Shown: piece by piece, positions 1 through 57,030 of the stretch | Position numbering within the stretch: the stretch's first letter is position 1 | Layout of the letters: each line of letters starts with the position of its first letter | Assembly: GCA_008632985.1 (NCBI GenBank) | Contig: QPGO01000019.1 | Span: 806,001 to 863,030, forward strand | DNA: 57,030 bases | Reading direction: 5' to 3' | Source: Psammoneis japonica | Taxonomy: Eukaryota | Made by a program: the position numbers and the translations under genes | The notes under the pieces: model-generated | Seen by the model: the letters and a program-made list of their open reading frames with translations, nothing else | What the model was told of the DNA's origin: nothing | The model's database searches: none

Positions 1-1750
1 CAGCAGAAAATTGGTCTTGCATTTGTCAACAGAAGCCCCAGCACCTGGGAGCATTGATCCTCAAAAGTTGCACATCAAGTGCCCTTGCTGACAACTCAGT
101 GTCCAAAGCCATCTCTGGTCAAGTTCCTTTGCTTGCAATGCAGGAAGTTGTCAATCACTGCCTTGGCATGCATGCAAAACAGTTGGAATGGTTTCTTCCA
201 CATCTCTTCCAACACCCCAGATGGTCATTTGTCGCTGTTGGTTCCATTTTTGTGGCACTCCCCATGCAAAATTTGCGTTGTTCTTCATTGCTGTGACCTC
301 CTCCTTGAATGCTTCTTTTGTTGTCTCAGCCATTTCCTTGGGACATGCTCTGTGACAACCAATGTCCAATCTTGGAACCAACGCCAATTGACACTTGGCT
401 CATTGAACAAAAATTGCCCCAGCCACATGCTTTTCCCTTGCTGTCTTCTTCTCCAGTTGGCATTTTGCTTGGTGCAAAAAAACATTCACTGAAAGAATCT
501 TGGGAACAAACACTGCCAACCCCCATTTGCACACTTCTTCCAAGCCACCAACTCTTTTTTTTGCAAGTGCCTCTTCTGAATTTTCGGTGCTTTCCCACCA
601 ACTCTTGTCAGCAACTGCTGCGCTGCCCTGTTTCTTTTTCTTTCCATTCCTCTTGCCAAGGTTTTGACTCTGCATCCTTTTTTGTTTGATCATCTTCTTC
701 CTTCTGATTTCCTTCATTTCCTCATTCGGCAACCATGTGTTGTCATCTTCTCCTTTGTCATCATCCACAAAAAGGGGTGAATCCACCACCCTTCTTCTTG
801 CTTCTGCCTTGTGTTCTGCTTTTGCTCCACCACACATCCAGCGCAGCTTGGCTCTGTCCACACCATGTGGCTGCTTTGCAAAACACTTTCTGCATTTCCA
901 AATCTTTCTTTCATCCTTTTCAGTGCTGCTTGCTGTCACACTCTTCACATCAACTCCTTTCTTGAGTGCATTTTCCATTCTCTTTGCTTGCAATTTGGCT
1001 CTCAACTTCTTCCTCTTTGATGCCAGCTCTTGCCAATGTTGACACATCTTGAGTTTTGCTCTTGCGTGCTTTGACATTTGCTTTGGATTGAACACATGCA
1101 ACACAAGCTGCACTCCAAACACAAGAAGCTTGTTAAATTTCTCTGCACACATTTGAACTCTGTCATGCACCAACCCTGTGTCATTCTAAATGGGGTGCAG
1201 CAAAATGGGCACTGCCAAAATTGGTGCTGATTGGACCATCTTCATTTCTTTCCTCACACTCTCTTTCTTTTGCTCTTTTTTCAACCTCTCAATTTCTTTC
1301 TCATTTTTTCTTTTTTCCCTTCCTTTTTTCTCACACTCTCCTTCCCCTCATCTAATCTTTCCCTGTTGCTTGCCATTGCACTGTCATCAGATGCATTCAT
1401 TTGCTTTTGAGACACTTCGCAAATCACTCCAAACTTCCCTCCATCAAATTCATTCGCACACGTGTCATGTTCATTCTGATTGACACCCCCACCCTTGCTG
1501 CTTGGACATCTTTTCTGCACGGCTCATGTTTGAGCATCCCCTTTCCCTTCAACTTTCTTCTTTTCAGCTCTTGTCCTTGTCAACTTTGCCATTTCTTCAC
1601 AAAACACGTGCATTTTCTCATGTCACCTCCACTTTTGCGCATTTTTGCTGACCCCATCAATGTCTTTTTTCACCACATCACCATGATTTTGCCATTCGCA
1701 GCCCATGTTTGCAGGGTGCATTTCTTCTCACGACACCTCTCACCTCCTCC
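1..1750. mobile_element. Degenerate repeat/TE remnant, TpA- and CpG-depleted domain (family not identified)
   Basis: Almost no TA and few CG dinucleotides; dense overlapping Cys/His/Gln-rich ORFs on both strands; a charged coding remnant on the minus strand (400..1173) with no recognisable domain. TE origin is inferred by analogy with the other depleted domains. Confidence 0.5.
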
Positions 1751-2160
1751 TCGCCTCTATCTATCTCACCTTCTTCCCCTCTGCAGCGCAGCCGCCCAGC
1801 ACCCAAGCACCACCTCCCCTCCTTCCGAGGGATGGGCGTTCAGTTAGTCTGCGCGCACTTGCTTGATGTGTGAGCCACACGCCACCAACTGCAGTGCACT
1901 GCAGTGCTGCCGCACGACATACAGACCATAATCGGGTCCATCGCCGCGCCGGCGCCGGCCGCCGCCAACAGTACTGTACATATTCGAATATTGTAGATAA
2001 TTCATATTCAATAATCATTTATTCAAGCCAATTCGTTGTGACGTCATGGAGAATCCACCTGCTGATAATTAATAATAAACAGCTGCCACGCCCCTGCTTT
2101 CTTTCAGACGGCGTACTGTAGATTTTGAATCTTACTGTGTGTATTGTGATCTTTGACATA

Positions 2161-2457
2161 CTACACAAATTGCAAGACAATTGCGCGATTCACGTGCCCG
2201 AAGGTGGAATATCGTTGCCCGAAGCAACATTCTCCCTTCGCGCAGATGTCAATTCTACGTATGATGTGGTATCAAAATTTTCATTTTGGTCCCAGTCATT
2301 TCATCAAATGACCTTGTGGTACTCTCCTACGTGATCTACGAAAATCGGAGCTTCGGGCTGGCTGGTACATTTTCTACAGGCTCTACGTGCGCGAAGCTCG
2401 AATTTCAACAATCACCCTTCGGGCACGTGAATCGCGCAATTGTCTTGCAATTCGTAG
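2161..2457. mobile_element. MITE-like element with terminal inverted repeats and TA flanks
   Basis: Perfect 37-bp inverted repeat 2168..2204 / 2416..2452 (aattgcaagacaattgcgcgattcacgtgcccgaagg). It extends imperfectly to ctac...gtag termini, flanked by TA at 2159-2160 and 2458-2459. No coding capacity. Confidence 0.7.
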
Positions 2458-2524
2458 TAAGCAGCATTCATTCGATGCAGTGAAGTTGGCGCCACAACCA
2501 TACTGTATCGCCATTGAAAGCAAG

Positions 2525-5500
2525 ATGAACGATGATAGCGTCGATGACGTTGAAGTAGATGTAGATGGGGGTGTCCAAATCCAAAATAATGAACTGAAAG
2601 AGGAGGAACATCCAGAGGAAGAGCACCCGGAAGAAGCAAAGGACAAGGTGCCAGAATCGGATGATTCCTACCGACGAAAGGTCTATGAAGATATCGGAAA
2701 CATTTGGAACATTGCTGCTCCGATGGCCATTCGAAATCTTTCTGTTTTGAAAGACAAGAAGAAGAATGGCGATGAAGGATCCGATCTTGCGGGAGCTCCA
2801 AATTTCATGACGGCCATTATCGGTTCTTGGCTTGCACGCAAATTGGGCTGTACGAATCCCCCATCACGGGAATCAACACGAGAGGGCGATGGAGACGGCG
2901 GCGGTATCTCCGACAAGTACGTTATTCATCATATCAGTGCCGTCCTTTCTCCTGGTGAAGCCACACTGTTGATTGCTCCTAGTTCCAGTGGAAAGACAAC
3001 GCTACTGCGGACTATTGCAGATCTTTGTGAATCGACTCAAGAGAACGAGCGGGAAGGAAGTCTTTTGATTGGAGGCTGTGATCCCTCGGACCCACAATAC
3101 AAGGGTTTCTTTCGTCGTTCTACTAAATTCGCCGATCAAGGTGACCTTACTCTTACGCCAGTTTTGACGGTAGAAGAAACGATTCGCTTCACAAGCTCGT
3201 GTGCAATGGACCAAACCGACGAACAACAGGAAAAGTACGTGCATGACTGCCTCCGTCTCGCCGGTTTGAGTCACGTGGCAGGGACAGTGGTGGGTAATGC
3301 AGAGATTCGTGGAGTTTCGGGTGGGCAAAAGCGTCGTGTCAAGATGCTAGAAATGGCAGTTGGACAAGACGCGAGAGTCCTTCTATTGGACGAGATTACG
3401 AATGGACTCGACTCTGCGTCAGCCCTTGCGAGCTGCCGAAATGTTGTCGTTTCCGTAGAAACTACTGGCTGTACTGCTCTTGTTAGTCTTTTGCAGCCAT
3501 CACCCGACAGCTACAGTCAATTTCACCGGGTAATTGTGCTCACCGAAGATGGAGAAATGGCGTATTCGGGACCTAGAGACTCAGCGGTCAGCCACTTTGA
3601 ATCTCTTGGATTGGCCAAGCCTGCCGATATGGATGAACCAGAGTTCCTACTCCGTTGTGCTTTCGAGCCCGAAAGTTTCATGAACAACAACGACGAGTCG
3701 AAGCTGACTCCTTCTGCCTTGGCGAGCATGTTTGCCGATACACCTGCTGGCAAATCGCTAATGGATCAGCTGGATGCTGCCGAGTCGACAGAAGCAAAGG
3801 AAAACCCAAAGGAGCTACCGGTATTCGCCAAGTCTCAACTGAAACAACTTGCGTTACTCCTTGGTCGTGGATGGAAGCTGATAATGCGCGTGCCAGACAC
3901 TTTCATCCGAGTGATCTCCGCAGTTCTCTTTGGGCTCTTTATTGGGACGTTGTTTCTGAACACCCCTGCTGACGCTGGTGGAACCCAGACTCGTGCTGGT
4001 TATGCGTTCACGACACTCATGCTCTTGTTTGATATTGGGGCGAATTGTCCTCTGGAAGCAAACTTTAAAGACCGCATGACTTTTTATTGCCATCGAGAGT
4101 GTAACTTTTACAGCACCAAGGCCTACTACATCTCAACGATGATTTGTTCTTGGTTTACCTCTTTCTTGGAAGCAACTTTCATCTGCCTTTGCAGTTTCTT
4201 CTGTGTTGGGATGGAGACGAATGGAGGATGGGGTTTCCTATACTTTTGGTTGATTTCAATCCTTCTTTCCTTTAACGGCCTGGCGACTGCGCGTATTCTG
4301 TCTTACTCGCTGCCATCGAATGATGTTGCTGCAGCGATTGGCCCGGCAATTCTAATTCTCTTCACAGTTACGGCTGGATTTGCTCCACATTATCTTGACA
4401 TGCCGGTTTGGCTCCGTTGGTTGTCGTGGTGCTCGCCTTGCGCTTATGCATACGAGGGTATGCTCATCAACGAACTACACACGCGAACAGTCTCAGTGGA
4501 TAACGTTTCCGTGCCAGGGAGCGAGTTTGGACAAGAGTTCTTGAACATCCCACGTATTCCATACGATCAGGCCAGTGCAGGCATGCAAACACCGGGGTCT
4601 GTTATGGCATTTGATGCTTACATGATCATTGCATTTACGATTCTTTTTGAAATTGTTGGGTGCGTCCTATTGCACGTGAGTATCAAGTGGTATGGGCCGA
4701 CCACCAAGCGCTACCAGGTGACTTCGGGCATGAGCCTCACTAAGGGAACTGACGTAATGGCTCAATTATCGAGAATGTTGCGTCGTTCCAGTACATTTGA
4801 ACCGGAGAAGCACACATCGGTTCCGACTGCTCCTCCGGCACATCTGACTTCAAGAGATATTGTGTACGAGGTTGATGTCCCAGTCAAAGCCGAAGAAGAA
4901 GAAAAGAAAGAAGAGACTGCGAAACCAAAGACCGACGGCGGAGCGGCTGCACCCGAAGTCGCAGATTCGGCGACGCTCTACCCTGAGCCAGTGGATGACG
5001 ATGAGCGGGTCCTCTTGACGGCAAGAGAATACGGACAAGCAGGCAAAGGCGAGGCACAAGAATTGTTGTTGAAGCGAGCTGTGGGCGCCGAGTCACTTTC
5101 ATCGCGAAGTGCCTCATTATCCGCAGCTTCCAATACGATCCGAGTGGAGGCGCTGACTGCCGCGGAAGCTGGTGCGGCAGATGATCTCGATCCACCGGCT
5201 CCAGGGAGGCTCCGACTTTTGAGTGGAATTACTTCGACATTTAGCCCAGGTACCATGACAGCTCTCATGGGAAGCTCGGGTAAGCCGTTGTTGCCGATAC
5301 AGTATGTGGAGATCCGTTTTGGTGCGTACGTGTACTAACCACTATTTCACTTGTATTCATAGGTGCCGGTAAAACTACGCTGTGAGCTCAGAAGACTGTT
5401 TCTTCGACGCGTTTTGCTTTATCGTTTCATGCGCTCACGTCGTTTTCGTTTCCGTAGCCTTGACGTTCTCGCAGGTTACAAGACAGGCGGTCACATCACT

Positions 5501-7175
5501 GGAAATATCTCTCTAAACGGCGTGCCCAAGACTGACGAGATGTGGCGCCTTGTTGCTGGATATTGTGAGCAAACCGACTTGCATAATCCCGCCATGACGG
5601 TGAGAGAATCTCTAATGTTCGCTGCAAGGATGCGTCTTCGGCCTTTCTCGCTTTCAGAAGAGGCTCGGATGGCTTTCTGTGAGGAGAACATGGAGCTTCT
5701 CGAGCTCGAGGAATACGCCGATGTCCTTGTTGGCGACGAAGCAGCCGGTGACGGACTTCCAAAACATGCACGGAAGCGCCTTACGCTTGGTATTGAGCTC
5801 TCGGCGAATCCGTCCATTTTGTTTGCTGATGAGCCAACATCCGGACTCGACTCGTTAAGCGCATTGCTCGTGGTGAAATCTCTTCAAAGGATTGCGGCGT
5901 CTCGAGGTGTCACTGTCGTTTGTACCATCCACCAGCCTTCGAAAGAGGTGTTCGAGACGTTCGAAAACCTTTTGTTACTTCGGAAGGGCGGAACCGTCGT
6001 CTTCAATGGACCGATTTCTTCGATCAGCAACTACATGACATCAATGTCCGGAGACGACAAGTATGCTTTGAAACCTGGTATGAACCCTGCCGACCATGCT
6101 TTGGACGTTTTCTGTGGTCCCGGAGGCGAGGCGTCGATTGGGGAATGCTATACAAGCGCTCTTCTATGGCGTCCAACATTAATCAAACTGTCGAAGCGTC
6201 TGAGAACGACAAGTCCGGTGGTATTGATGTGGAGGACACCGAGAAACTTGGTATGTTTGTGGAGCTCTCGAACGTTCTGCGCCGACAAGTTCTTGCCCAT
6301 TGGCGAACTCCCACTTATATGGCGATAAGATTCTGGTGGACCCTGGTAAGTAATGCCGTAAGCAACGTGTGCATTTTTTCGTATTTTATTCTGTTCGATA
6401 GTGGTGCTTGTTGCTTACACATCGTCGCGGTGTATTCTGCAGTTTGGGACACTGTTGGTAAGCTTGATCTTCATCGGTTTACCTCAAACGACAGAAGGAG
6501 CCTTCAACCTTATCGGAGCAATCTTCAATTTCGTCACCTTGGCGACGGTTCCTCTATGTCTGCGTCTGTTCCGCTCATCATGGAGCGAGCAGTCTTTTAT
6601 CGTGAAGTGTCTAGTGGAACGTATCGAAAATACATTTATGCCATGGCTGTCGAGCTCGCTGAGATCCCGTTCAACCTCTTGATGGCAGTGATTTCATGGG
6701 TTATCTTCTACTGGATTGTGGATCTCGACCCAAGAGCCGACAGGGTGATTTACAATTTGTTGATGACTCTTGTCGTTTATTGGGTCTTGCCTCTATTTGG
6801 TCAGCTCGTTTCATTCGTTTCTCCGAACTTTGGCATTGCTGCCGTCATTCACGGAGTTCTGCTTGTGGGGTTCACCCTCACGATGGGCTTCCTAATTGCA
6901 CCTGACGAGATTCCAGGTTGGTGGATATGGGTGTACTGGATCAATCCGTTGAGATACGTTTTGCAAGGCATGGCTGTCAACGAGTTGGGTGACGGAAGAC
7001 TGTATCTAAATGAACAAACTGGAGAATCTGTTTCGGGTGATGTGATTTGGATAATCTCGGCGGCTGGTCTTTCGATCAACGTTGGTGGTATTGCTTCGTT
7101 GTTGTTATCATGTTTGGTCTCGCTGCAACGGCGGGTATGCTAGGTGCAGTGCGTATTAACTGGATGAAGCGTTGA
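2525..7175 (+). CDS. Full-size ABCG (PDR-type) ABC transporter, NBD-TMD-NBD-TMD
   Basis: NBD1: APSSSGKTT, VSGGQKRRV, LLLDE. NBD2: GSSGAGKTTLLDVLAG after splicing, YCEQ, ILFADEPTSGLD. Two TMDs, ERAVFYRE motif, C-terminal RINWMKR* at 7175. Introns 5280..5362, 5382..5457 and probably 6346..6441. Apparent 1-nt frameshifts near 6130, 6555 and 7047. Confidence 0.93.
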
Positions 7176-7429
7176 CCAAAGCAGATGTATATACCGGTAA
7201 TTCCTAGTAACTTGAGAATGACTCTTTACCGAGGCAAAGTATTCCAAAGCCACTTGTTGAGAAAACGTTGACTTTAACATAGCTTGTCGAATCAGGTGGA
7301 CCGATGCATCTTGTCGTCTAGCCTCGGGAATCGCGAAGATCGAAGTCGATGCAAAAATACCGTCATCAACCGGGTTTGGGTGCAGACCCAGCCACATTGA
7401 ACCGACTGCGCACTCGACGTCAGCGTCGT

Positions 7430-9200
7430 GTTGGCTCCAACAAGCCATTTTGTCCACATTTACAATGGCACAACCTCATCACAGCATGATGAGCGATGTT
7501 CATCAGTGGAAAATGATGAGTGTTGCGGCCTTGAGGTTTGTATTATGCTGGTTGTCATTTCTTGTAATTTTCTGTTGTCTCAGAAAATTTTCTGCACAGG
7601 CTCAAGGCAATTTCTGTGAGGATCCGCAGATGTCACTGATGATCTGCGTCTTGCTTCTGCAGATTGCTTTTATCCTTGCCAACTGGTCTTCAATGCCACT
7701 TCCTTTCTCTGCTGTTCAATCCAAGTCCTTCACTCTCTGGGGTGAAGCACTGCTTCTGTTGCGGCCCTTTTCAGCAAGAACAACAGTTGTCCTTTGGCAT
7801 CATTTGACCGCCATCAGTTTGCTGCTCCTGCTGGCTTTTCTGTGCAAGATCAGCATTGTTTCCACATGTCACCACTGATGATCTGTTGTCACTTCTCCAG
7901 ACTGCTTTCATCCTTGCCAACTGGTCTTCAACACCACTTCTTTCCTCTGCCGTTCAATCAAGTCCTTTGCTCTTTGGGGCGAATGTGGTGCTTCTGTTGT
8001 GGCCTTTTTCAGCAAGAACACAAGTCATCCTGCAGTGTCATTTGATTGCCATGCATTTGCGGGCTGCTCCCACTGGCTTTTCTGTGCAAGACCCAGTGTT
8101 GTCTCTGCGTGCAATGAATGTTTTCTCCAATGAGCAACCTGCTTCTCTCACCTTCAAGCAGGCTCCTTTTGTGGGCTGTTTTAAAAACCCATCCGGGTGC
8201 AACAGCCCTCTGCAGTTGTGGCATGCCTTCTGTGGCTGTCACCAACAATCACACAACAAATCCCTTGTGTGAATCATTCCTTTTCAGTTGTCTTGGTGGG
8301 GTGTCACCTCATTCTGGCAGCTGGCACCACCCATTCTGGCAGCCCCCTGCGTGCAAAAAGCTCCTGCCACACTGAAGCAGCGTGCTTGCTGGGAGCATGT
8401 GTCAGCCAGTGTCGGCACAGCTGGCAATGGAGTGACAGCACTTGAAATTTAGACTTTTTTCACATCATTGTAAACAACACCAGCCCCAGCAACAACCTGA
8501 AAGGGGCACTGTCTTGACGCAAAGTCATTCACGGGAGCAACCCTTGCTTGGTGGGTGGGTGCAAGAAAACCAGGCTTGCTGGGGAGCATTGACCACACTG
8601 CCATGCTGTTCAAAACATTTCTGGAACCTGAAACATCAGTTTGATGTGCGCATTGCATGTGCTTGTGATTGTTGGTGTGTGTCAGGCATGGGGCAGGCAT
8701 TTTGTTGGTGGATTGTCCCACTGCAATGGCCCACACAGTTGGCTTCAGCTCAAGGTGGCATGGGTGCAAAAGTGGGCCAGATTCTGTGTGTGCAGAACTT
8801 GGCACGTGTTTTCTGCACAAATTGCCACAGTCACCTCACCAACTTTTGAACCCTCTCCCAGATGATGAAAATTTGAACATTTTTCACGTGACAAAGTGTC
8901 CAGACCACTCAACTGCAGTCCCCTCGACTTGTTCATGGAGAGAAACTGCATGTTTTCATGTGTTTTTGAAGACACACACCCCGAATTTAATCAGAAAGGT
9001 GCCAAAATCGCGACGTTCGAGTTTTGCAGAGATGTGGGATGTGGCAAACGACAAATGTGTGAAATTGAAACATGTTGTGTGGTTTCTTTCAATGATTCAT
9101 GGCCAGGGTGATTCATCGAAATGATTCTTCCCCCATTCTGAAGTGCCAGTTCTCAATTCTACAGCATGACAACAGTCATGGCGGCGATCGTTGATTTTTG
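7430..9200. mobile_element. Degenerate repeat/TE remnant, TpA- and CpG-depleted domain
   Basis: Sharp compositional switch after the ABCG 3' end and back again before the helicase; contains an internal tandem duplication; no identifiable domain. Confidence 0.5.
7631..8105 (+). repeat. Diverged tandem duplication, two units of about 235-240 bp
   Basis: Both units (starting ~7631 and ~7868) share, in order, cactgatgatctg, atccttgccaactggtcttcaa, ttttcagcaagaaca and ctggcttttctgtgcaaga. Confidence 0.8.
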
Positions 9201-9372
9201 TGTCTGGCCGTACCCCGGATTCAGGTCTAGAGGGGCTGTGGGCTGGGCTTGGGCTGGGCAAAAAGAGCAAAAAAAGGTGGAGCTACGAGCTACAATCTTG
9301 AGACTTGAGATCGACACAACTTGAAACTAACAGCAACGCATACCTCATCGTTGCTGCCTTGCGTAAATCATC

Positions 9373-12300: not shown

Positions 12301-13198
12301 AGATGATCCTAAGACAGCGCCGAGCAAGGAAGCACAAGAAACATTAATGGATGAACTTCCCTTTCCAAAGACGGCGCTCTTGGCGGCAACGGGGTGTCAA
12401 TGTGAAGCGTGAAGTACACGGGTACAAGAAGTTGTCCCCAGTAACGAGAGAAGAGCTATCGCGTTCCGAAATTTCGTTGCCACCCATGGAGTATGATACG
12501 TTTGCCCTGTGGCTCGACACGGATGCATCGTCACTCTCAGAACACATATTGGACTACGATGCTGGAGTGCACGCATTGTCTCATGCTCTCGTTGCAGTCG
12601 CACCTCTCTTTGTTTCATGTACAAGCTCAGATATTGACTGCGACCATAGTACCTTCCAATGTACTCGATTGGCGTTGTTCGATGTCAGAGCGGGAGGGCT
12701 GGAACTTGCGCTCAATTGTGGCATCATCTATTTCGACCCAGGGACTTTTGAGCGCGGCAGTCGATCTGCTTACAACTTGTCCGTCCTGTGACGTTGACAA
12801 TAGATACCAAGGCGGATGTCCAGCTTGTATCCAATCTGGTCAATGTCTCAAGTTTAACCAGGATCTCTCCAGGTCAGCAGGGGCTATAATTGGCAATCGC
12901 TTGTTGGCTCGCATCGAACAAACTGAAATGTACAAGAGCCATTGTGAGTATTCCGAAGAGCATGATGTGTGGGCTGTAGCGATGACCGAGCGGCAGCGAA
13001 AGCTCCGAGAGCAACGAGAAGAAGAAGTCATCACCCAAGACTGCTTCATCCCCTAGAAGACGTGCAAGAGCTCAAGCTCTTCGCAACGCTAAGGATCTTT
13101 CTGGTGCACGCGAACGCCAAATCGTGGTGGGTCGGCCTTCCTGGCCTCTTGATGGTAGTGAAAGTCGAGTTGGAGGCCGGCAAGCCGATTGTCACTGA
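9373..13198 (+). CDS. HRQ1: Hrq1/MrfA-family DEAH-box helicase with C-terminal Zn-binding DUF1998-type domain
   Basis: Motifs TGTGSGKS, PTKALAQDQ, TNPD, VVIDEAH, SAT, ALELGVDIG, QQAGRAGR; C-terminal HALSHAL and C-x-x-C...GCPACI...C. Intron about 11837..11920. Split over several ORFs by apparent 1-nt indels, so the ends are approximate. Confidence 0.88.
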
Positions 13199-13334
13199 AT
13201 AATCCAAAGAGCTGAGCATTCCAAGACTGCACAACTGTGCTTATGAATTCGATCACGACTCAGTCTGACGGGTCGCGTTTCTGATACATCAGCTCGGAAC
13301 AATTAAAACACAAAACCATCACTCTAATACGGTA

Positions 13335-14263: not shown

Positions 14264-14421
14264 CTTGCTTGCAACAGTGTCTAGTGTATTTGGGATGGCT
14301 GGGAGCTCAGTTCTTGCGTGCCAGTCTCGATCACAATTCCTATGACGAGTAAAGAAGTCTATTTTTATCGGGGACAGAAGCATTGCATGCAATAGGGCCC
14401 TATTTTCTATATATTAGCTTT

Positions 14422-20620: not shown

Positions 20621-20629
20621 TTTCCGCGC

Positions 20630-41659: not shown

Positions 41660-42106
41660 GCAGGAGGGGGGCTGCGAGCAGGTGGCTGACGTCCACCAGA
41701 AAGCTCCTCCGTTGCAGACAGTTCCCTCCACCTCCTCCAACCTCTCTGGTGTGGAACAACTGCTCCAGTGGCAGCAAGGGAAAAAATGATTTGTCATTGG
41801 CGTCACAAGTGTGGCATGGCTGTCATGGTCGATGCGCCCGGGGCTCGACTCCACTTGTGCGTGCGTGGGAATCACATCATGCATTTTGTCCAATCATGGT
41901 GCCCCCTGCTCCCTTTCGGCAAACGCCGGCCGGCGCAAGTGTGCGGGCTCTGTCCGCCTGTCCGCCAAAATCTCCAGCCAAGCAACAAACAAAAAAACCA
42001 AAAAACGAAGACAACGCAATAAGCACAAGAACATTGTGCCTTGCCTTGGCGTCCCGCATCCCGCATCCCAATACAATACGGTAGCATATCCCAACCCAAC
42101 AAAATT

Positions 42107-48630: not shown

Positions 48631-48806
48631 TTTGTGACTCCAACACACATTTTCAGTTTGCTGCGCATGCACACTGCAGTTGCCCCTCACAATTTGCTGC
48701 TGTGCATGATGTTTCTCACACAGGAACCAATCCAAACAACAACAAAATGATCAAACAAAGATGATGAAATCCTCTTCATTCTTCCTTTTTGTGACAGGGA
48801 AGGCAG
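48631..48806 (+). repeat. Left copy of a ~176-bp direct repeat flanking the inverted Penelope pair
   Basis: tttgtgactc...gtgacagggaaggcag, nearly identical to 54320..54496. Confidence 0.92.
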
Positions 48807-48814
48807 CTCTGTGT

Positions 48815-51300
48815 TGGGGTTCTCTAATGTGCTGAGCACCTTTGGCACTGACAAGATTCTGTTTTGTCTTGCCTGGCCTGCAAAGCTCGACGATGCAAGC
48901 TTTCGCTTTCACTTCATCGGTGCGGTTGGCATTTTTCTCGTGAGCCAAAAAAGTCGAGATTGGCATTTTCAATGGCTGAGGTTGCAGCTGACCTCACTTG
49001 CCGTTAAAAAACAACGGGCCATTGGGAACATGCCGATGCACGCTGTGCGCACAGTCTTTGCCCAAAACTCCATTGTGGAGAAAAAGGTGGGCGTCGTCTT
49101 CTCAGTTGATGGTCTGAGCCTGCGAGCTAAAGACCAGATGGCATGGACCAGCCTGCTGTTGTTTGGTGATTGGGGTTTTGTGCAACCCTAAATTCAAAAA
49201 AACTCAAACGGGCGTAAGCCGAAGCACCGCAGGCGCGGCAGGCAGCCCATTTGAGTTTTTTGCCGGAGTTGAGTCATTGCTGCAATTGGCAAGTCATTGG
49301 CTCAGAGCTCCGGTGACAGCAGCTCAATGTGTTGTGAGACCTGGTGTCCTTCTGGTTCATCAAGACATGTTTTCATTGAGGCGTCTCTCAAATTTCGTGG
49401 TCACGAGCATGCTGTCACAAATCTGTCAAAGCCAGAGTGCCAAGCCAGTGTGTCGTTGTATGTGCATCAGATCGATGCTCGCGGTGTGCCTCTTGGGTGG
49501 TGTTCCTTGTGGAAGAACAGGACTGAGCTCGAATTGTTGGTGGGCGTGGTGTCTGGTTGCTGGGGGCGTTGATCCATCCGCTCTGCAGCTTCCATGAAGA
49601 GATGACGGATGGTGTTTTGGTCGTGACCTCTTGCGACGAGTCTCTTCGCAAAGTTTTCTGCGGCGTTGGTGTGATCGCGTGCGTCAGAATTTTGCGTGCA
49701 GAACCATCGCAAGTTTCCATGTGTGATGCTCTTCAGGACTCCTTGTGGGTGGGCGGAGCTGGAAGGTGTGCACAAAAAAAGATTCATTGGTTTTTGGTGA
49801 GTTTTTGCAACAATGCATCCGTCTTCTCCAATCTTTGTTTCCAGGTCCAGGAAGATTGCAGAGGCAGAAAGTGGGGAGGCAACCCATTGAAGGGGGCCTG
49901 AGTTGTTAAGCTCGTTTTTGAAAGCTTCCCAGGCATCTCCACTGTTTCCAGTCCATGCTCCAAGTGTGTCATCAATGAACCGTCCATGGTGCAGGAGGTT
50001 CGGGGTGAAGTTTTTCGTTGTCACTTGCCGTTCATGCAGCGCTTTGTGCAGTGTGGTGCACATGCAAGCGGTGCTTGTGCCCACAGCCGTTCCGGTCGTC
50101 TGCAGCCAGAAGGTGTCGTCAAATTGTGTGATGTTGCTGGTCATGACGACCTTCAAGGTTTCCAGAAAAAAGTGTTTTGGGAAGGCTTCTGGTGTCTCGT
50201 CAGGGCATTCTGAGAACCAGGTTTCAAATGCTTGGAGTGCATGATTCGCATCAATGTTGGCACACATGCCCACTGCATCAACTGTGAACAGTCGTGCATC
50301 TGGTGGCAGCTCTTTCAAGGCTCGTAGGTCGGCGAGGACTTGGCATGAGTCTCGGATGAAGGACCAGGAGAGTGCAAGCAGCTGTTTCATTTTATGATCA
50401 AGCCAAGTCGAAAATGTTTCATTGAAGCCACCGACACAACTGACGATTGGCCTTGTTCTCCAGGGTGAGTTGTGGACTTTAATGGTGACATGGAATTGGG
50501 GGACGCGGTGGGGCAGTTTGAAACTTCTGGTGAAGCAAGTGCATTCTGCGGCACTTAAAATGTTTTTTGCTTCATCACATGCTTTCTTGAGCTTTTCTTT
50601 TGCATCCGCTGGGAGTTGGTCTTTTTTCTCCAGAGGCAGTTGTTGGCAGTTCCGCTTGTTCAGCAGATGGTCTGTCAAGGCTCTTGACATGCAGGTTTTT
50701 CGCTCAAGGATTGCGGGCCCAAGATTTTTGTTGCTGAGGCATGCAATGAATCTCCTGTCTGCCTTCAGGGTTTTTAAGAGGCGGCATTGCATGGGTGTGA
50801 GGTTGCAGCATCTTCGGCCGGCCACAGCTGGGTGGCTCGTGCATTCAACTTGTGCTGCAAAGTCCATCATGCGGAGTTCGAGGTTGCCTTTTTCTATTTT
50901 GGGTGGGTCCCAGTTTGACTTGATGCACAGTCCTGGAATGCAGTCATCACCCGGGGTTTGGGCATCTGCGCTCGTAAGGAAATGTCTAAGGTGCATTGAT
51001 CGACAGAGCTGGTCCATGCTTTCCTCAATTCTTGGGCTTGGTTTTGGTGTTTCGATGCAGCACTTGTGTCCAAGGCCAAGCAGCGTTGTGAGTCCCAGCA
51101 GGGGTTGCATGGTTGTGCACAAATTGTGGCAGGCCAAGTTGTCAGGTTGGTTGAAGCAGTCGGGTGCTTGCATGTTTCCGAGTGCACTGGCTGCGTTCTG
51201 CCAGGGGTTTAGATTTGGGTTTGGTGTGAACCCAAATGTGCGCTGGCAGTGATTGTTGGCGATTGTTTCAGTGGTGTCAATTGGCTGTTGGGTGTTCTGG
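48815..51300 (-). mobile_element. Penelope-like retroelement, 5'-truncated minus-strand arm
   Basis: NKNLGP, RPIVS, DAVGMCANI (for D..SMY.NI), QFDDTFWLQ..GTAVGT, RFIDD, FLDL, KTHQKPMNLFLC.P..SAHP, RPRNLRD. Reverse complement of 51815..54313. Confidence 0.88.
48870..48931 (-). ncRNA. Hammerhead ribozyme-like motif (type I), mutated core
   Basis: Minus strand reads tgccaaccgca-ccgatga-agtgaaagc-gaaa-gcttgcatcgtcgagc-tt-tgcaggccaggca; the core reads CCGATGA instead of CTGATGA. Confidence 0.6.
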
Positions 51301-54300
51301 TGGGATGCCTTTGAAGAAGCAACACTTTGCTCACAACGGCAAATTAACCACGAGCGTGAGATGGCACAAGCAAACGCCAGAGTTGCCGCGGTGTGGTGCT
51401 CTTGCCAGAAAAAGGAGGCAGCGGAAGCAACGGCTGCAGCTCTGGAACAAGAGCCAACTGCAACACCGCCCCTCCTCAGGCAGGCAGCATGCAAAGAGAC
51501 AGAAATTGCAAACAAGGATGAGAAAAAGCCACAAGGCAAGAACAAGCAAAAAAAAAAACGCAAAGGGCGACCGGAAAGCCCCACCGGCAGTGCAAAAACA
51601 AGGCCCGAGAAAGAAACGCCCAGCAGCACAAAAAGAAAATGGTCCGCCAAGCAAGAAATGAAGATTCGAAAGAAACTGCAGACAAAACAAAGGCCCTCAA
51701 GACAACAAGAGGAAAAAAGGCCAAGGAAATGCAAAAGGACCTCGAGGCGCACAGCGCAACGGCGGGCAAAGCAACTCCAGAAACAAGAAAACAGGCGGCA
51801 GGTGCAAATGACCTGCCAGAACACCCAACAGCCAATTGACACCGCCGAAACAATCGCCAACAATTGCTGCCAGTGTACATTTGGGTTCATGCCAAACCCA
51901 AATCTAAACCCCTGGCAGAACGCAGCCAATGCACTTGGAAACATGCAAGCACCCGACTGCTTCAATCGACCTGACAACTTGGCCTGCCACAATTTGTGCA
52001 CAACCATGCAACCCCCGCTGGGACTCGCAATGCTGCTGGGCCTTGGACACAAGTGCTGCATCGAAACGCCAAAACCAAGCCCAAGAATTAAGGAAAGCAC
52101 AGACCGGCTCTGTCGATCAATGCACCTCAGACATTTCCTTGTGAGTGCAGATGCCCAAACCCCGGGTGACGACTACATTCCAGGACTGCACGTCAAGTCA
52201 AACTGGGACCCACCCAAAACAGAAAAAGGCAACCTCGAACTCCGCATGATGGACTTTGCAGCAGGGGTTGAATGCACGAGCCGCCCAGCTGCGGCTGGCC
52301 GAAGACACTGCAACCTTGCACCCATGCAATGCCACCTCTTAAAAACCCTGAAGGTAGACAGGAGATTCATTGCATGCCTCAGCGACAAAAATCTCGGGCC
52401 CGCAATCCTTGAGCGAAAAACCCACATGTTAAGAGCCTTGACAGACCATCTGCTGAACAAGCGGAGCTGCCAACGACTGCCTCTGGAGAAAAAAGACCAA
52501 CTCCTGGTGGATGCAAAAGAAAAGCTCAAGAAAGCACATGAGGAAGCAAAAAACATTTTAAGTGCCGCAGAATGCACTTGCTTTGCCAGAAGTTTCAAAC
52601 TGCCCCACCGCCTCCCCCAATTCTACACCACCATTTAAGTCCACAACTCACCCTGGAGAACAAGGCCAATCGTCAGTTGTGTCGGTGGCTTCAATGAAAC
52701 ATTTTCGACTTGGCTCAATCATAAAATGAAACAGCTGCTTGCGCTCTCCCGGTCCTTCATCCGAGACTCATGCCAAGTCCTCGCCGACCTACGAGCCTTG
52801 AAAGAGCTGCCACCAGATGCACGACTGTTCACAGTTGATGCAGTGGGCATGTGTGCCAACATTGATGCGAACCATGCACTCCAAGCATTTGAAACCTGGT
52901 TCTCAGAATGCCCTGATGAGACACCAGAAGCCTTCCCAAAACACTTTTTTCTGGAAACCTTGAAGGTCGTCATGACCAGTGACATCATGCAATTCGACGA
53001 CACCTTCTGGCTGCAGATGACCGGAACGGCCATGGGTGCAAGCACCGCTTGCATGCAAGCCACACTGTGCAAAGTGCTGCATGAACGGCAAGTGACAACG
53101 AAAAACTTCACCCCGAACCTCCTGTGCCATGGACGGTTCATTGATGACATGCTTGGAGCACATGGACTGGAAACAGTGGAGATGCCTGGGAAGCTTTCAA
53201 AAACGAGCTCAATGACTCAGGCCCCCTTCAATGGGTCACCTCCCCACTTTCTACCTCTGCAATCTTCCTGGACCTGGAAATGAAGATTGGAGAAGACGGA
53301 TGCATTGTTGCAAAAAACGCACCAAAAGCCAACGAATCTTTTTTTGTGCATGCCTTCCAGCTCCGCCCACCCACAAGGAGTCCTGAAGAGCATCACATGT
53401 GGAAACTTGCGATGGTTCTGGATCGAAGAGACTCGTCACAAGAGGTCACGACTAAAACACCATCCGTCATCTCTTTGTGGAAGCTGCAGAGCGGACAGAT
53501 CAATGCCCTCAGCAACCAGACACCACGCCCACTGACAATTCGAGCTCAGTCCTGTTCTTCCACAGGGAATGCCACCCAAGAGGCACACCGCGAGCATCGA
53601 TCCAACGCGCATGCAACGATGCACTGGCTCGGCACTCTGGCTTTGACAGACTCGTGATGGCACACTCGCGACCACGAAATTTAAGAGACACCTTGATGAA
53701 AACACATCTCGATGAACCAGAAGGACACCAGGTCTCATGATGTGTTGAGCTGCTGTTACCGGAGCTCTGAGCCAACAACTTGCCAATTGCAGCAATGACT
53801 CAACTCCGGCAAAAAACTCAAATGGGCCACCTGCCGTGCCTGCGGTGCTTTGGCTTGCGCCCATTTGAGTTTTTTTGAATTTAGGGTTGCACAAAACCCC
53901 AATCACCAAACAACAGCAGGCTGGTCCATGCCATCCAGTCTTCAGCTCACAGGCTCAGACCATCAACTGAGAAGACGACGCCCACCTTTTTCTCCACAAC
54001 AGAGTTTTGGGCAAAGACTGCGCGCACAGCATGCATCGGCACATTCCCAATGGCCCATCATTTTTTAACAGCAAGTGAGGTCAGCTGCAACCTCAGCCGT
54101 TGAAAGTGCCGATCTCGACTTTTTTAGCTCACGAGAAAAATGCCAACCACACTGATGAAGCGAAAGCGAAAGCTTGCATCGTCAAGCTTTGCAGGTCAGG
54201 CAAGACGAAATGGAGTCTTGTCAGTGCCAAAGGTGTTCAACACATTGCAGGTTGGGCAAGACGAAGTGGAGTCTTGTCAGTGCCAAAGGTGTTTGGCACA

Positions 54301-54313
54301 TTGGAGAACCCCA
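51301..54313 (+). mobile_element. Penelope-like retroelement, plus-strand copy with longer basic 5' region
   Basis: Same RT motifs (SDKNLGP, GTAMG, RFIDD, SAHP, RPRNLRD). About 55-bp internal deletion near 53420 and a ~49-bp tandem duplication at ~54190..54300 relative to the other arm. Confidence 0.88.
54141..54202 (+). ncRNA. Hammerhead ribozyme-like motif (type I)
   Basis: CTGATGA at 54152; short stem II gc-gaaa-gc; GAAA; stem III gcttg/caagc; UH; interrupted stem I tgcc...aca / tgc...ggca. Hammerheads are an established feature of Penelope-like elements. Confidence 0.72.
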
Positions 54314-54319
54314 GTGCCA

Positions 54320-54496
54320 TTTGTGACTCGCAACACACATTTTCAGTTTGCTGCGCATGCACACTGCTGTTGCCCCTCACAATTTGCTGCTGTGCATGAT
54401 GTTTCTCACACAGGAGCCAATCCAAACAACAACAAACTGATCAAACAAAGATGATGAAATCCTCTTCATTCTTCCTTTTTGTGACAGGGAAGGCAG
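54320..54496 (+). repeat. Right copy of the ~176-bp direct repeat
   Basis: Matches 48631..48806 with a few substitutions and a 1-nt indel. Confidence 0.92.
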
Positions 54497-54939
54497 TTCC
54501 CATGTGCTGGTGCAGGGACAATGAGGTGTGCCAAATTGGAGATTGTTCAAGCGTGTGAGAGGATGCAAGCTCTGCCAGGGGTTTCTTCCCTGGCACATGT
54601 TTGCACCTTTTCCAAACCCCCAAAAAGAGTGTGCCAAAGATGCCAGTCAAACCAAGTTGATTTGTTGGGATGGAAAAGCCATCATGTCTGCCACAGCATT
54701 CCAAGGCAAGAGTGGGTTGCCTGCAGCATTGCTTGCGGGCCCCTGGGCAAGTTTGCCCAGATCAGCCAGCTTGCTCATTTTTTTGTCAGGCCACAGCCAG
54801 CAGCCTGGATTCTCTGGTGACTGGGGGACTGTGCTGCCCCACCCTGAAGGCTGGGAGAAGGCAAAAAAAGTGGACAAAAGCAGAGCAAGAGTTCTCTTTA
54901 GATCAAACAACAGCAGTTGATGCACAACTCTGCTTCAAT

Positions 54940-55019
54940 GTTGCTTCCTTGTGCAAATCATCATGAAGACAGCAACAAGACCCGCTGGACACTCCAGAAA
55001 AGAAGCAGAACCAGAATTG
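54940..55019 (+). pseudogene. Duplicated fragment of the helicase gene 5' end
   Basis: Colinear with 9350..9429 (aaatcatcatgaagacagcaacaag...cagaaaagaagcagaaccagaattg), encoding MKTATRP...RKEAEPEL. Confidence 0.85.
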
Positions 55020-55229
55020 ATCTGCCATGACACCACCAGCCAGCAACTTTCTCTGCCCAGTCAGCTGGGCTGCAACATGGGAGATGCTGGCAGCATGGCC
55101 CAGTCCAACGGAGCAGCAACAAGACTGCACACAGTGTTTTGCCATTTGATGCACAGGCGCCGTCAATGGCTCAAATGCATTTAGTTAAAATTGATGGAAC
55201 ATGCAACAGGATCAGCCAGATCACATGCT

Positions 55230-57030
55230 GCAGTGTTGAAGCCCGTGCCCCACACATGAAACTTTGAGGAGATGCTGCCCTTGCTTCATCACAACAGCAA
55301 CCAGTGGATCATTTGAAAAATGAAGACCAAAGAACTGCCTGTCATTGTTGGAAGATGTGCTGCAGCAGATCTTGCAAATGAAGTTCTCCACATGGTGGGC
55401 AGACACATTGATGCCAGACCTCACGTTCAATGCCACTTTCAAATGCTTCGGCATTTTGATTTACAAAGTTGAGACAGAAGCAGACATGTGTCACTGTTCA
55501 TGGACCCACATGATTGGTTTGGATTTCTCTGCACTGAGCTCTGTTGCGCAATGCTTGGGAAACATCCCAACCATGCTGTGAGTTCCAAGCATGTGCATGA
55601 CCCCAAGATTGCTCAATTGATTGAACCTCTTCTTTTCTGCATTGCAAGCAACACAAATGCAAAGGAGAAGTTGGAGTCAATTTCCCTGGGTGAGGGTGAT
55701 TCCCAACCATGGGTCTTCAGAACATGCTCGATGCAGGTGCAGGCATTGATCGTAACTGCATCATCATTCTGGATGATGCCAACACTGTTGAAACTCATGC
55801 AAAGGCCAAGGCACTTGAAGGGGGGGATTCTTCAATTGCCAGTTGGAGTTGTTTCCCAATGTGATCATGTGTCTTGATGGCAATGTCATCGGCCAGCGCA
55901 GCAAGGGCAAAATGGTCAACTTGGTGGAGGAGCAGCACTTTGGTGCCATTGCAGAGGCTGGAGCACGTGCATTTGTTGTGCACAGTGTTCCAGAAGAGGA
56001 GCTTGGCATCAGCAAGGATGGCATTGATGTGCTTTTCCCAAAGTGCGCCACTTTCAGGGTGTCCTTGTGGGGGGTGAAGGAGTGGCAGGAAGTGGGTGGG
56101 GTCAAGATCCTCCCAAATTGCTTTTTGCACCATTCACGGCAGGGGCGGTGTTGGTCGCCACAAAGATGGGATGTGTGGGGCGTGGCAAGTGTGCACCACA
56201 TGCATCCTGAGCATCACCTCCAAAGATGCAGCAGCAAAGTCCAGCACTGAGTGCAACAAACATTTGTTGTGTGGCTTGTTCAACACAGGCAGAGGCATGT
56301 CAAGGCAAATTTGCACAGGGTGGGTGCCGCTTTCCATGATCCATCCCCCCATTGTCACTGGCAGCTTTCTCCAGTTGTCTTCATCTGACATTGCCAGCGG
56401 GTTGCATGACAGCAGCGCCTTCAGGACAAGGTTGGGGAGGTCCATGCATGCCAAGTGCATGAAATTGGTCAAGTTGCTTGTGTCAGTCAGCTTCCCATTT
56501 GAGCCATGTGGAGAGCTCCTGCAGTTGGCAGCGGGTGAAATGATCAAGTTCCACCTCTTCATCAGTCATGACAACACATGACATGGCATTGATGTGTGTG
56601 CAGAATTGTCCATTGGGGCGATGTCTTCTGAGAAGTCATCCTTGGGATGTGGGATGGATGCAACAATTTGCACTTTGGTGAGGGACGCTTCAAGGATGTT
56701 CTCATCAATGAGATTGGCCTTGGGGGTGAAGCATTGATGTTCATCCATTGCTTGATGCAAGGCGGGGAGTCCAGGTGACATTTGGGTGCAAAGTGATTTC
56801 AAAAGTCAGGATTTCTTCCTGGAAAACTTGGCGCAGTGTGTGTTTGGCATTGTCCATGGCAAAGACTTTGTGCTTGTTGATCAACACAATGCATGTGCCA
56901 ACAATCTTGTTCCATGTGGCTTGAGGAGCAGAGAACAGGGCCAAGGTGGGTGACTGATCTTTGACGCCAGATTGCAGACTCTGTCCATCAAGTTGCAGGT
57001 TGAAAGGACAAGTCCATGTGTCCAGTCTTG
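55230..57030 (-). mobile_element. Degenerate Ty1/copia reverse transcriptase remnant, a different family from the intact element; runs off the window
   Basis: QGHPESGALWEKHINAIL, LLHQVDHFALA (for RQVDDF) and FNSVGIIQ...CIEHVLKTHGW (for FNGVDI.Q...YI..L..HGW). Confidence 0.8.

What the first reader, a model, noticed from the sequence alone, without database searches (positions are those of the whole stretch)
1..57030. Transposon-restricted TpA->TpG/CpA hypermutation: a candidate 'reverse RIP' genome-defence system
Seen: six domains (~1-1750, 7430-9200, 18570-23900, 34200-36180, 38480-42060, 43400-57030) are nearly free of TA, while the genes between them have normal TA and Tyr. Conserved Tyr positions in three unrelated retroelement types read Cys or His: CRE-like SHIDD; Penelope MCANI, KTHQKP, LFLC.P, ITHG/ITCG; copia GKILCA and CIEHVL. 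TAY->TGY/CAY fixes the direction as A-to-G in TpA on either strand. Established: fungal RIP does the opposite (CpA->TpA), and 5mC decay gives CpG->TpG/CpA, which cannot remove Tyr codons. Inference: a repeat- or heterochromatin-targeted process mutates the adenine in TpA. Candidates are a TadA/ADAT-like deaminase acting on DNA, deamination of a modified adenine, or Pol-eta-type error-prone repair. AA runs remain abundant, which argues against a generic WA mutator. I do not know of a description of this in diatoms but could not search the literature.
Basis: partly seen in the sequence, partly recalled or inferred. Interest (0 to 1): 0.95.

Follow-up and report, generated by a model that had tools for sequence, protein, structure and literature searches.

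The report
TA-erasing hypermutation of diatom transposons
In this diatom DNA, almost every TA step inside dead transposon blocks has been rewritten to TG or CA while neighbouring genes are untouched, a localised mutation process so far reported only in one unrelated alga.

Summary
Six blocks (27.2 of 57 kb) hold 101 TA (obs/exp 0.06) against 1169 (0.58) in the genes between them, with TA-free runs up to 1870 bp. The direction is TA->TG/CA, after integration and at DNA level. In a copia LTR pair, 10 of 14 differences have TA in the 5' LTR and CA/TG in the 3' LTR. Two inverted copies of an RT element differ at 45 CA-versus-TG sites. Of 16 conserved Tyr columns, 14 read Cys/His, and the sister copy still has TAC at two. 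CpG->TG/CA decay co-occurs but is about 5x slower. TA loss runs about 200x background. Block edges are sharp and cut through two elements. Contigs of another run of the same sample carry the TA-free sequence at single-copy depth, so a base-calling artefact is unlikely. Host genes place the window in a raphid pennate diatom. The same signature was shown experimentally in the chlorarachniophyte Bigelowiella natans in a 2026 preprint. Seven literature searches found no report for diatoms. This is a new member of a very recently described kind. The enzyme is unknown.

The parts
11..1756 (.). TA-depleted domain 1 (3 TA, o/e 0.02; CpG o/e 0.22)
   Evidence: HMM segmentation. No family match on its ORFs.
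7568..9158 (.). TA-depleted domain 2 (5 TA, o/e 0.05; CpG 0.27). Holds a diverged tandem pair, 7634-7849 and 7873-8091.
   Evidence: The tandem pair shows 8 CA-versus-TG sites.
18551..24050 (.). TA-depleted domain 3. It is composite: an older CpG-poor part 18551-20599 (CpG 0.18) and a GC-rich RT element 20600-24050 (TA o/e 0.07, CpG 0.84).
21485..24292 (+). RVT_1 reverse-transcriptase ORF (936 aa, 1 Tyr). Its last 240 bp (24051-24292) lie outside the depleted domain and keep TA (o/e 0.68).
   Evidence: Pfam RVT_1. 832 relatives. The 3 of 3 conserved Tyr inside the domain read H, C, H; the one outside is kept. Boundary.
29411..35184 (+). copia-type LTR retrotransposon with LTRs 29411-29714 and 34881-35184. 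The body has normal TA; only the 3' end, from about 34700, is hit.
   Evidence: LTR differences are 10 TA->CA/TG, 3 CG/TG and 1 other.
34713..36190 (.). TA-depleted domain 4 (15 TA, o/e 0.16; CpG 0.84). It spans the copia 3' end plus about 1 kb of flank holding a Cys-rich ORF, 35320-36063 (-).
   Evidence: There is a weak lead to a transposase zinc finger.
38645..41973 (.). TA-depleted domain 5 (2 TA, o/e 0.01; CpG 0.19). Contains the 1870-bp TA-free run and an N gap at 41588-41659.
43424..57029 (.). TA-depleted domain 6 (61 TA, o/e 0.07; CpG 0.35), running to the window end.
48826..51300 (-). Arm B of the inverted pair of an RT-type (DUF8422 family) element. The ORF 49470-52172 (-) has 901 aa and no Tyr.
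51816..54246 (+). Arm A of the inverted pair, 90.5% identical to arm B.
1758..7565 (+). Control: ABCG-type transporter gene region with normal TA (o/e 0.57).
9160..18549 (.). Control: helicase, DUF6824/TAZ and SET/LSMT genes with normal TA (o/e 0.57).

Best explanation
The window comes from a raphid pennate diatom. Six blocks of degenerate transposon DNA in it have undergone near-saturating, block-confined hypermutation of TpA dinucleotides. Either the A becomes G (TA->TG), or the same change on the other strand gives TA->CA.

Shown: the change happened in the chromosome after the elements were integrated or duplicated. It is specific to TpA. It runs roughly 200 times faster than other transitions and about 5 times faster than the CpG->TpG/CpA decay that accompanies it. 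It stops at sharp edges that can lie inside an element.

Inferred: the blocks are silenced, CpG-methylated chromatin, and a chromatin-guided enzyme does the mutating. The most likely candidate is an ADAT2/TadA-like deaminase turning adenine in 5'-TA-3' into hypoxanthine, which is copied as G. This is the same process measured directly in Bigelowiella natans. Its effect is to destroy coding capacity (Tyr->Cys/His, Ile->Thr/Met) of mobile DNA. Because TA->TG/CA cannot create an in-frame stop, long open frames survive in dead elements.
For: Composition. The loss of 875 TA and 1100 CG is about balanced by a gain of 810 TG and 953 CA.

Polarity and timing.
- LTR pair: 10 of 14 differences have TA in the 5' LTR and CA/TG in the 3' LTR, 10 of 10 in one direction (p=0.002).
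- Inverted arms: 179 transitions against 8 transversions. There are 45 CA-versus-TG sites, 18 TA-versus-TG/CA, 53 CG-versus-TG/CA, and only 18 other transitions. The orientation of discordant sites is 25:20, so it is not strand-systematic.
- Conserved Tyr columns: 0 of 16 kept in the 901-aa ORF (9 Cys, 5 His, 1 Phe, 1 Lys), against 206 of 261 other conserved columns kept (p=9e-11). At those codons the sister arm has TAC at 2 and the opposite outcome (Cys against His/Gln) at 6.
- Single-step paths: 24.3 TA>TG/CA against 2 other AT>GC transitions among 71 mismatches. A host gene gives 1 of 30.
- No H->R, Q->R, C->R or W->R at conserved columns, so CpA is not a target.

Not an artefact. Contigs of run X1 cover the TA-free blocks. 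One 2324-bp contig at depth 49.5 runs from a gene (42071) into TA-free DNA (44377) with 8 other letters. Other copies read A where the window has TGT at 34838, which restores Tyr.

Positional targeting. TA o/e is 0.04 in the first 200 bp inside an edge and 0.68 in the first 200 bp outside. Edges cut the RT ORF at 24050 and the copia at about 34700.

Precedent. The B. natans mutation-accumulation lines show about 6e-7 per site, all at TpA, giving TpG or CpA, in integrated viral DNA. That genome also has TpA-poor clusters enriched in RT and DDE domains.
Against: - No enzyme, no chromatin or methylation data and no measured de novo rate exist for this organism. No whole genome is held, so genome-wide association with transposons is untested.
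- The only sequencing runs found come from the same sample as the assembly and have no library record.
- A multi-copy copia is largely unmutated, which fits poorly with a simple 'all transposons are targets' model.
- In the GC-rich RT element the protein-level spectrum is weak: 4 TA paths against 8 other AT>GC transitions.
- Seven copia relatives from metagenomes are CpG-poor but only mildly TA-poor (o/e 0.24-0.59), so the process is not general among relatives.
- Sequence cannot tell A-deamination from a T-directed route.
Confidence: 0.8

Rival explanations
1. Same localised TpA hypermutation, but the base attacked is the thymine. A TET/JBP-type oxidation of T in TpA gives 5-hydroxymethyl- or 5-formyl-uracil, which mispairs with G and gives T->C. 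The chemistry here is recalled, not tested.
For: TpA is self-complementary, so every TA->TG/CA count fits a T-directed process as well as an A-directed one. The blocks also carry a cytosine-modification footprint in their CpG decay.
Against: No call bears on base modifications in this organism. The B. natans authors favour an ADAT2-like deaminase, but on prediction only.
Confidence: 0.15
2. A homology-triggered, RIP-like premeiotic process with reversed chemistry. Duplicated sequence is detected and mutated at TpA during the sexual cycle, possibly involving the diatom DNMT4 enzymes related to fungal RID.
For: The duplicated arms and the tandem pair are heavily mutated. Diatom DNMT4 groups with RID and has no known function (passages of PMC9998398).
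Against: The copia has contig depth 200-500 against about 48 for single-copy DNA, so it is multi-copy, yet its 5' 5.3 kb is unmutated. Block edges lie inside elements. Part of block 6 is at single-copy depth. A C5-methyltransferase fold offers no obvious route to A:T->G:C.
Confidence: 0.08
3. RNA-level A-to-I editing of retroelement transcripts, ADAR- or ADAT-like, fixed by reverse transcription and re-integration.
For: A U before the edited A is the known preference of such enzymes (cited in the preprint). Three of the affected elements are retroelements.
Against: The two LTRs of one insertion differ in 10 TA sites, although LTRs are identical at integration. TG and CA outcomes are mixed along one ORF and between sister arms, so both strands were hit. 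The blocks include non-element flank and stop inside elements.
Confidence: 0.04
4. Sequencing or assembly artefact: a modified base at TpA in silent chromatin is misread.
For: The window differs from the run's contigs mostly by small indels, 17 gaps in 2.3 kb. This suggests a noisy long-read assembly.
Against: Contigs of run X1 at depth about 49 carry the TA-free sequence contiguous with a normal gene. A strand-symmetric misread would give all-TG or all-CA paths, not the intermixed Cys/His pattern. The mutated ORFs are genuinely degenerate.
Confidence: 0.03
5. Native composition or selection: these elements evolved to avoid TA, for example to avoid UpA-cleaving RNases, and were never TA-rich.
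For: TA is mildly under-represented everywhere in the window (o/e 0.58 in genes).
Against: Unmutated relatives have 3.5-4.2% Tyr while the element here has none. Sister copies resolved the same ancestral codon differently, and two still hold TAC. The 5' and 3' LTRs of one copy differ.
Confidence: 0.02

Closest known systems
TpA-specific hypermutation of integrated giant-virus and virophage DNA in Bigelowiella natans (Mettrop et al., bioRxiv 10.64898/2026.01.13.699255; abstract, found passages and sections 11-12 read, supplements not seen)
   Same: Mutations occur only at TpA and give TpG or CpA. The A:T->G:C bias is extreme. The process is confined to foreign or mobile DNA. The long-term footprint is TpA-poor, CpA+TpG-rich clusters enriched in RT and DDE domains. 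The rate is orders of magnitude above background.
   Different: The host is a Rhizarian, not a stramenopile. The main targets there are viral inserts that are still TA-rich (3.3-9.2% TpA), whereas here the retroelement blocks are saturated (o/e 0.06). The parts of the preprint read here mention no CpG decay, no edges inside elements and no TTAA-type refractory context. Here there is no direct rate measurement.
Fungal repeat-induced point mutation (RIP; RID/DIM-2)
   Same: A dinucleotide-specific transition hypermutation on both strands ruins mobile DNA and leaves a compositional footprint.
   Different: The chemistry is the opposite: RIP turns CpA into TpA and makes TA-rich DNA, while here TA is erased. 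RIP is triggered by duplication. Here a multi-copy copia is mostly spared and edges cut elements.
Deamination decay of methylated CpG in silenced transposons (known for diatom transposon methylation, PMC9998398)
   Same: It is present in the same blocks, with CpG o/e 0.19-0.38 and R->C/H/Q/W replacements.
   Different: It cannot remove TA or Tyr codons. It is about 5x slower in the same DNA and separable from TA loss. 20600-24050 is TA-free with CpG 0.84, and metagenome relatives are CpG-poor without strong TA loss.
ADAR/ADAT A-to-I editing and APOBEC3 restriction of retroelements
   Same: A deaminase-type transition signature appears on mobile elements, and TadA/ADAT/ADAR substrates have a U or T before the target A (as cited in the preprint).
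   Different: Those act on RNA or on cDNA before integration and mark one strand. Here the changes are post-integration and on both strands.

Membership tests
Localised TpA->TpG/CpA hypermutation (Bigelowiella natans type) | Substitutions confined to TpA, giving TpG or CpA | tested here: met
   LTR pair, 10 of 14 differences. Inverted arms, 161 of 187 differences lie in YR steps and only 18 are other transitions. There are 24.3 TA paths against 2 other AT>GC transitions.
Localised TpA->TpG/CpA hypermutation (Bigelowiella natans type) | Confined to foreign or mobile DNA while host genes keep the normal spectrum | tested here: met
   All 6 depleted blocks are intergenic. Three hold retroelement ORFs. 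Genes between them have TA o/e 0.53-0.61. This covers one 57-kb window only, with no genome-wide test.
Localised TpA->TpG/CpA hypermutation (Bigelowiella natans type) | Directly measured de novo rate far above background | not testable with these tools
   Only an indirect estimate from sister copies is available: about 208x other transitions.
Localised TpA->TpG/CpA hypermutation (Bigelowiella natans type) | Responsible enzyme (proposed ADAT2-like adenine deaminase) | not testable with these tools
   No genome is held for the window. The enzyme is unproven in B. natans too.
Fungal RIP | C->T at CpA producing TpA-rich DNA | tested here: not met
   The direction is the reverse. TA sits in the unmutated LTR and in unmutated relatives.
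Fungal RIP | Triggered by sequence duplication and covering the duplicated length | tested here: not met
   The copia is at contig depth 200-500 against about 48 for single-copy DNA. It keeps normal TA over 29411 to about 34700. Edges lie inside elements.
Fungal RIP | RID/DNMT4-type enzyme and premeiotic timing | not testable with these tools
   No genome and no life-cycle data. DNMT4 exists in some diatoms.
Methylated-CpG deamination decay | CpG->TpG/CpA loss with TG/CA gain | tested here: met
   CpG o/e is 0.38 against 1.02. There are 53 CG-versus-TG/CA sites between the arms. It is a second, separate process and cannot explain the TA loss.
   Relatives carry Pfam DUF8422. Atlas neighbours carry DUF8422, HTH_animal and RVT_1. 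No GIY-YIG domain was looked for, and the local Pfam copy gave no match.

The most novel reading that the evidence does not exclude
Diatoms run an active, chromatin-guided DNA base-editing defence. A natural TA-specific A:T->G:C mutator marks out silent blocks with base-pair-sharp edges and erases every TpA in them within a short evolutionary time. Because the same signature occurs in a rhizarian alga, the system would be ancient and widespread in the SAR supergroup. It would be the mirror image of fungal RIP and a natural counterpart of laboratory adenine base editors.
Probability: 0.3. Interest if true: 0.9.

Novelty: new member of a known kind. Interest (0 to 1): 0.7.

Why it matters
Dinucleotide-specific hypermutation as a defence against mobile DNA was known mainly from fungi (RIP) and from animal APOBEC/ADAR enzymes.

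A TpA-specific A:T->G:C process has been reported once, in 2026, in a chlorarachniophyte. Finding its saturated footprint in a diatom has several consequences.
- It extends the process to a second, ecologically dominant lineage.
- It shows that retrotransposons are targets.
- It gives anatomical constraints on the mechanism: post-integration timing, both strands, sharp positional edges inside elements, faster than CpG decay, and a TTAA-type refractory context.
- It points to a genetically tractable group in which the enzyme could be found.

There is also a practical consequence. TA-free, Tyr-free open frames in diatom genomes are dead elements that gene finders and profile searches will misread or miss. 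In this window 290 of 291 ORFs from such blocks had no convincing family match.

Tried and rejected
- Whole-genome analysis: no genome is held for this window, so genome-wide maps and a search for deaminase, TET/JBP or DNMT4 genes were impossible.
- Sequencing runs: only three runs of one sample were listed, and no RNA holder was listed. Run X3 laid nothing.
- Pfam on short ORFs: a scan of 145 ORFs of 60-109 aa from the depleted blocks gave no credible family. So four of the six blocks are called transposon-derived only from composition, repeats and context.
- Gradient outside the blocks: I looked for TA depletion spreading into the genes outside the blocks. There is none, with o/e 0.68, 0.64 and 0.55 in successive 200-bp bins. 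An early impression of spreading from the 500-bp profile was dropped, except for the copia 3' end.
- Foldback-read artefact for the inverted pair: rejected, because discordant sites are oriented 25:20.
- Metagenome relatives of the copia: only 7 loci were found, too few to map the distribution of the signature.
- Tyr-free relatives in public protein data (P0140, P0288, P0239, P0323, P0347): they come from unnamed metagenome contigs, so no taxon could be assigned.
- Atlas search on the Cys-rich ORF 35320-36063: it gave only a sub-threshold lead to zf-Tnp_2 (score 0.88).
- The scan's earlier findings: nothing relevant turned up.
- Literature: seven searches for a diatom report found none. Papers outside the held library cannot be excluded.

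Full report
**1. The observation**

A 500-bp sliding profile shows blocks where TA obs/exp is 0-0.1 and TG/CA is 1.8-2.1, alternating with regions where TA is 0.4-0.9. TA-free runs reach 1870 bp. At the TA density of the normal segments (0.039 per base) such a run has a chance of about e^-73.6.

A two-state HMM gives six depleted domains: 11-1756, 7568-9158, 18551-24050, 34713-36190, 38645-41973 and 43424-57029. Together they span 27.2 kb and hold 101 TA (o/e 0.06). The remaining 29.7 kb hold 1169 TA (o/e 0.58).

Taking the normal segments as baseline, the blocks lack 875 TA and 1100 CG and have gained 810 TG and 953 CA. AA is not depleted (1.31 against 1.12).

**2. What lies where**

Pfam assigns the TA-normal segments to ordinary genes:
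- an ABCG transporter
- a DEAD/Helicase_C helicase
- two DUF6824 proteins
- a SET/Rubisco-LSMT protein
- a MYND protein
- a sulfatase

The SET protein's best named relatives are raphid pennate diatoms (Nitzschia, Cylindrotheca, Amphora, Bacillariaceae) at 60-66% identity. The best unnamed hit is at 71%. So the window is from a pennate diatom without a close relative in that database.

In or at the depleted blocks lie three recognisable elements:
- An RVT_1 ORF at 21485-24292.
- A copia element at 29411-35184 with 304-bp LTRs.
- An inverted pair, 48826-51300 and 51816-54246, 90.5% identical. Its 901-aa ORF has five relatives carrying DUF8422. Atlas neighbours carry DUF8422, HTH_animal and RVT_1.

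No other ORF of the blocks matched a family.

**3. Direction and timing**

(a) The two LTRs of the copia, which are identical at integration, differ at 14 positions. At 10 of them the 5' LTR has TA and the 3' LTR has CA (8) or TG (2). Four TA are kept in both. Ten of ten in one direction gives p=0.002.

(b) The inverted arms differ by 179 transitions and 8 transversions. The differences break down as follows:
- 45 sites read CA in one arm and TG in the other. This is the mark of one ancestral YR step resolved independently on either strand.
- 18 sites are TA against TG/CA.
- 53 sites are CG against TG/CA.
- Only 18 are other transitions.

The orientation of the CA/TG pairs is 25:20, so the pair is not a foldback-read artefact.

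(c) Against five unmutated relatives (3.5-4.2% Tyr), the 901-aa ORF (0 Tyr) reads 9 Cys, 5 His, 1 Phe and 1 Lys at the 16 conserved-Tyr columns. By contrast 206 of the 261 other conserved columns are kept (p=9e-11). At those codons the sister arm has the same codon at 5, TAC (Tyr) at 2 and the opposite outcome at 6. One of the 14 Cys/His codons falls in an alignment gap.

(d) In the RVT_1 ORF, the three conserved Tyr inside the block read H, C, H. The one just outside (24053) is kept. In the copia ORF, 6 of 13 conserved Tyr read C or H.

(e) I assigned each mismatch at a conserved column to a single-base path:

| ORF | TA>TG/CA | CG>TG/CA | other AT>GC transitions | mismatches |
|---|---|---|---|---|
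| 901-aa ORF | 24.3 | 8.5 | 2 | 71 |
| Host SET gene | 1 | 0 | 2 | 30 |
| RVT_1 ORF | 4 | 8 | 8 | 51 |

The RVT_1 ORF is less clear than the 901-aa ORF.

No conserved H, Q, C or W became R, so CpA/TpG are not being turned into CpG.

(f) Contigs of other copies in the read data have A where the window has TGT at 34838, which restores Tyr.

**4. Rates**

These estimates come from the arm comparison.
- About 104 ancestral TA were lost at about 85% per arm.
- About 127 CpG were lost at about 30% per arm.
- Per base, TA change is about 5 times CpG decay and about 200 times other transitions.
- The numbers assume equal TG/CA outcomes and homogeneity. Seven shared TA against one expected shows that some sites are refractory.

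The two processes are separable. Region 20600-24050 is TA-free with CpG o/e 0.84. Conversely, seven copia relatives from metagenomes are CpG-poor (0.12-0.86) with TA o/e 0.24-0.59.

**5. Anatomy of targeting**

Edges are sharp. TA o/e is 0.04 in the first 200 bp inside and 0.68 in the first 200 bp outside. CpG, in contrast, falls gradually inward from 0.58 to 0.22.

Edges do not respect element ends.
- The RT ORF runs 240 bp beyond its block and keeps TA there (6 TA, o/e 0.68, same 61% GC).
- The copia is normal over about 5.3 kb and hit only at its 3' end, together with 1 kb of flank.
- The copia is multi-copy, with contig depth 200-500 against about 48 for single-copy DNA.

This favours positional (chromatin-block) targeting over homology- or transcript-based targeting. 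That is an inference.

Surviving TA are not random. TTAA makes up 28 of 101. In TTAA 6.8% of sites survive, in CTAA/TTAG 3.5%, and in ATAT, ATAC, CTAG and GTAC at most 0.8%.

**6. Artefact check**

Three runs of one sample were found, and their library type is not on record. Contigs of X1 cover all 30 bins. Depth is 48-59 across single-copy genes and 49-231 across the TA-free blocks.

One 2324-bp contig at depth 49.5 runs from 42071 (gene) to 44377 (TA-free) with 8 other letters and 17 gaps. Other contigs in TA-free DNA show 1-6 other letters.

Consistent 31-mer depth implies accurate reads. The many small gaps suggest that the window comes from a noisier assembly.

This is the same sample, so it is not independent biological support. 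It does make a base-calling artefact unlikely. So does the intermixing of TG and CA outcomes along one ORF.

**7. Mechanism**

Shown: the process is TpA-specific, hits both strands, acts after integration, is confined to blocks, is very fast, and accompanies CpG decay.

Established knowledge: hypoxanthine from adenine deamination pairs with C. TadA/ADAT2 act on an A preceded by U. These points are as cited in the preprint.

Inferred: an ADAT2/TadA-like deaminase is recruited to silent chromatin.

A T-directed route (oxidised thymine mispairing with G) fits the sequence data equally well, because TpA is its own complement. This chemistry is recalled, not tested.

One useful corollary follows directly from the genetic code. 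TA->TG/CA never creates an in-frame stop, and only CGA->TGA from CpG decay does. This explains the 900-aa open frames in dead elements.

**8. Comparison with what is known**

The bioRxiv preprint 10.64898/2026.01.13.699255 reports, from mutation-accumulation lines of Bigelowiella natans, the following (I read the abstract, the found passages and sections 11-12; I did not see the supplements):
- 20 of 20 mutations in a virophage insert and 210 of 211 in a giant-virus insert are A>G or T>C.
- All of these lie at TpA.
- The rate is about 6e-7 per site.
- The genome holds 124 TpA-poor, CpA+TpG-rich clusters enriched in RT and DDE domains.
- The authors propose an ADAT2-like enzyme.

The word 'diatom' does not occur in that preprint. 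Seven full-text searches found no diatom report.

Fungal RIP is the mirror image and fails two membership features here. Hoguin et al. 2023 (PMC9998398, passages only) note RID-related DNMT4 enzymes of unknown function in some diatoms. This is a lead, not evidence.

**9. Verdict**

- Observation: confirmed.
- Novelty: a new member of a kind described once, in another supergroup lineage. The added anatomy is saturation, retroelement targets, edges inside elements, co-occurring but slower CpG decay, and a refractory TTAA context.
- Interest: 0.7.

Noticed in passing
window 29408-35189: One contig of run X1 (depth 39) joins 29408 to 35189, skipping exactly the copia with both LTRs. This may be an empty-site allele, meaning a hemizygous and therefore recent insertion. 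The shorter side of the joint is only 28 letters, so the evidence is weak.
   Followed up: no
all depleted domains: Surviving TA sit mostly in pyrimidine-TA-purine contexts. TTAA makes up 28 of 101, against 49 of 1164 in normal DNA. ATAT, ATAC, CTAG and GTAC are almost extinct. This is either an extended-context preference of the mutator or regeneration of TA.
   Followed up: partly
inside the edges of the depleted domains: CpG depletion deepens gradually from the edge inward (o/e 0.58, 0.39, 0.33 ... 0.22), while TA depletion is complete from the first 200 bp.
   Followed up: partly
window 42071-44377 and other contig pieces: The window differs from the run's contigs mainly by small insertions and deletions, for example 17 gaps and 8 substitutions in 2.3 kb. 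This suggests residual indel errors of a long-read assembly, or heterozygous indels.
   Followed up: no
proteins P0140, P0288, P0239, P0323, P0347 (public metagenome proteins): A few relatives of the copia and RVT_1 elements in public metagenome data are also nearly Tyr-free and rich in Cys and His (Y 0-0.6%, C+H 8.5-10.5%). The same footprint may therefore exist in environmental diatoms. No taxon or DNA could be obtained.
   Followed up: partly
window 35320-36063 (-): A Cys-rich 248-aa open frame lies in the depleted flank of the copia. It has only a sub-threshold atlas lead to a transposase zinc finger (zf-Tnp_2, score 0.88) and may be a DNA-transposon remnant.
   Followed up: partly
window 54940-55019 and 9350-9429: An 80-bp stretch in depleted domain 6 is 84% identical to the start of the helicase ORF region in normal DNA. 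It is too short to interpret.
   Followed up: partly
window 2312-7140: Two consecutive ABC_tran + ABC2_membrane units lie in three open frames (2312-5335, 5363-6325, 5833-7140). This could be a full-size ABCG transporter interrupted by introns or a frameshift, or a tandem pair.
   Followed up: no
L002, L003, L004, L006 (metagenome copia relatives): Stretches with CpG o/e 0.0-0.2 but TA o/e 0.34-0.57. This is strong methylation-type decay without TA erasure in other diatom-like copia copies.
   Followed up: partly
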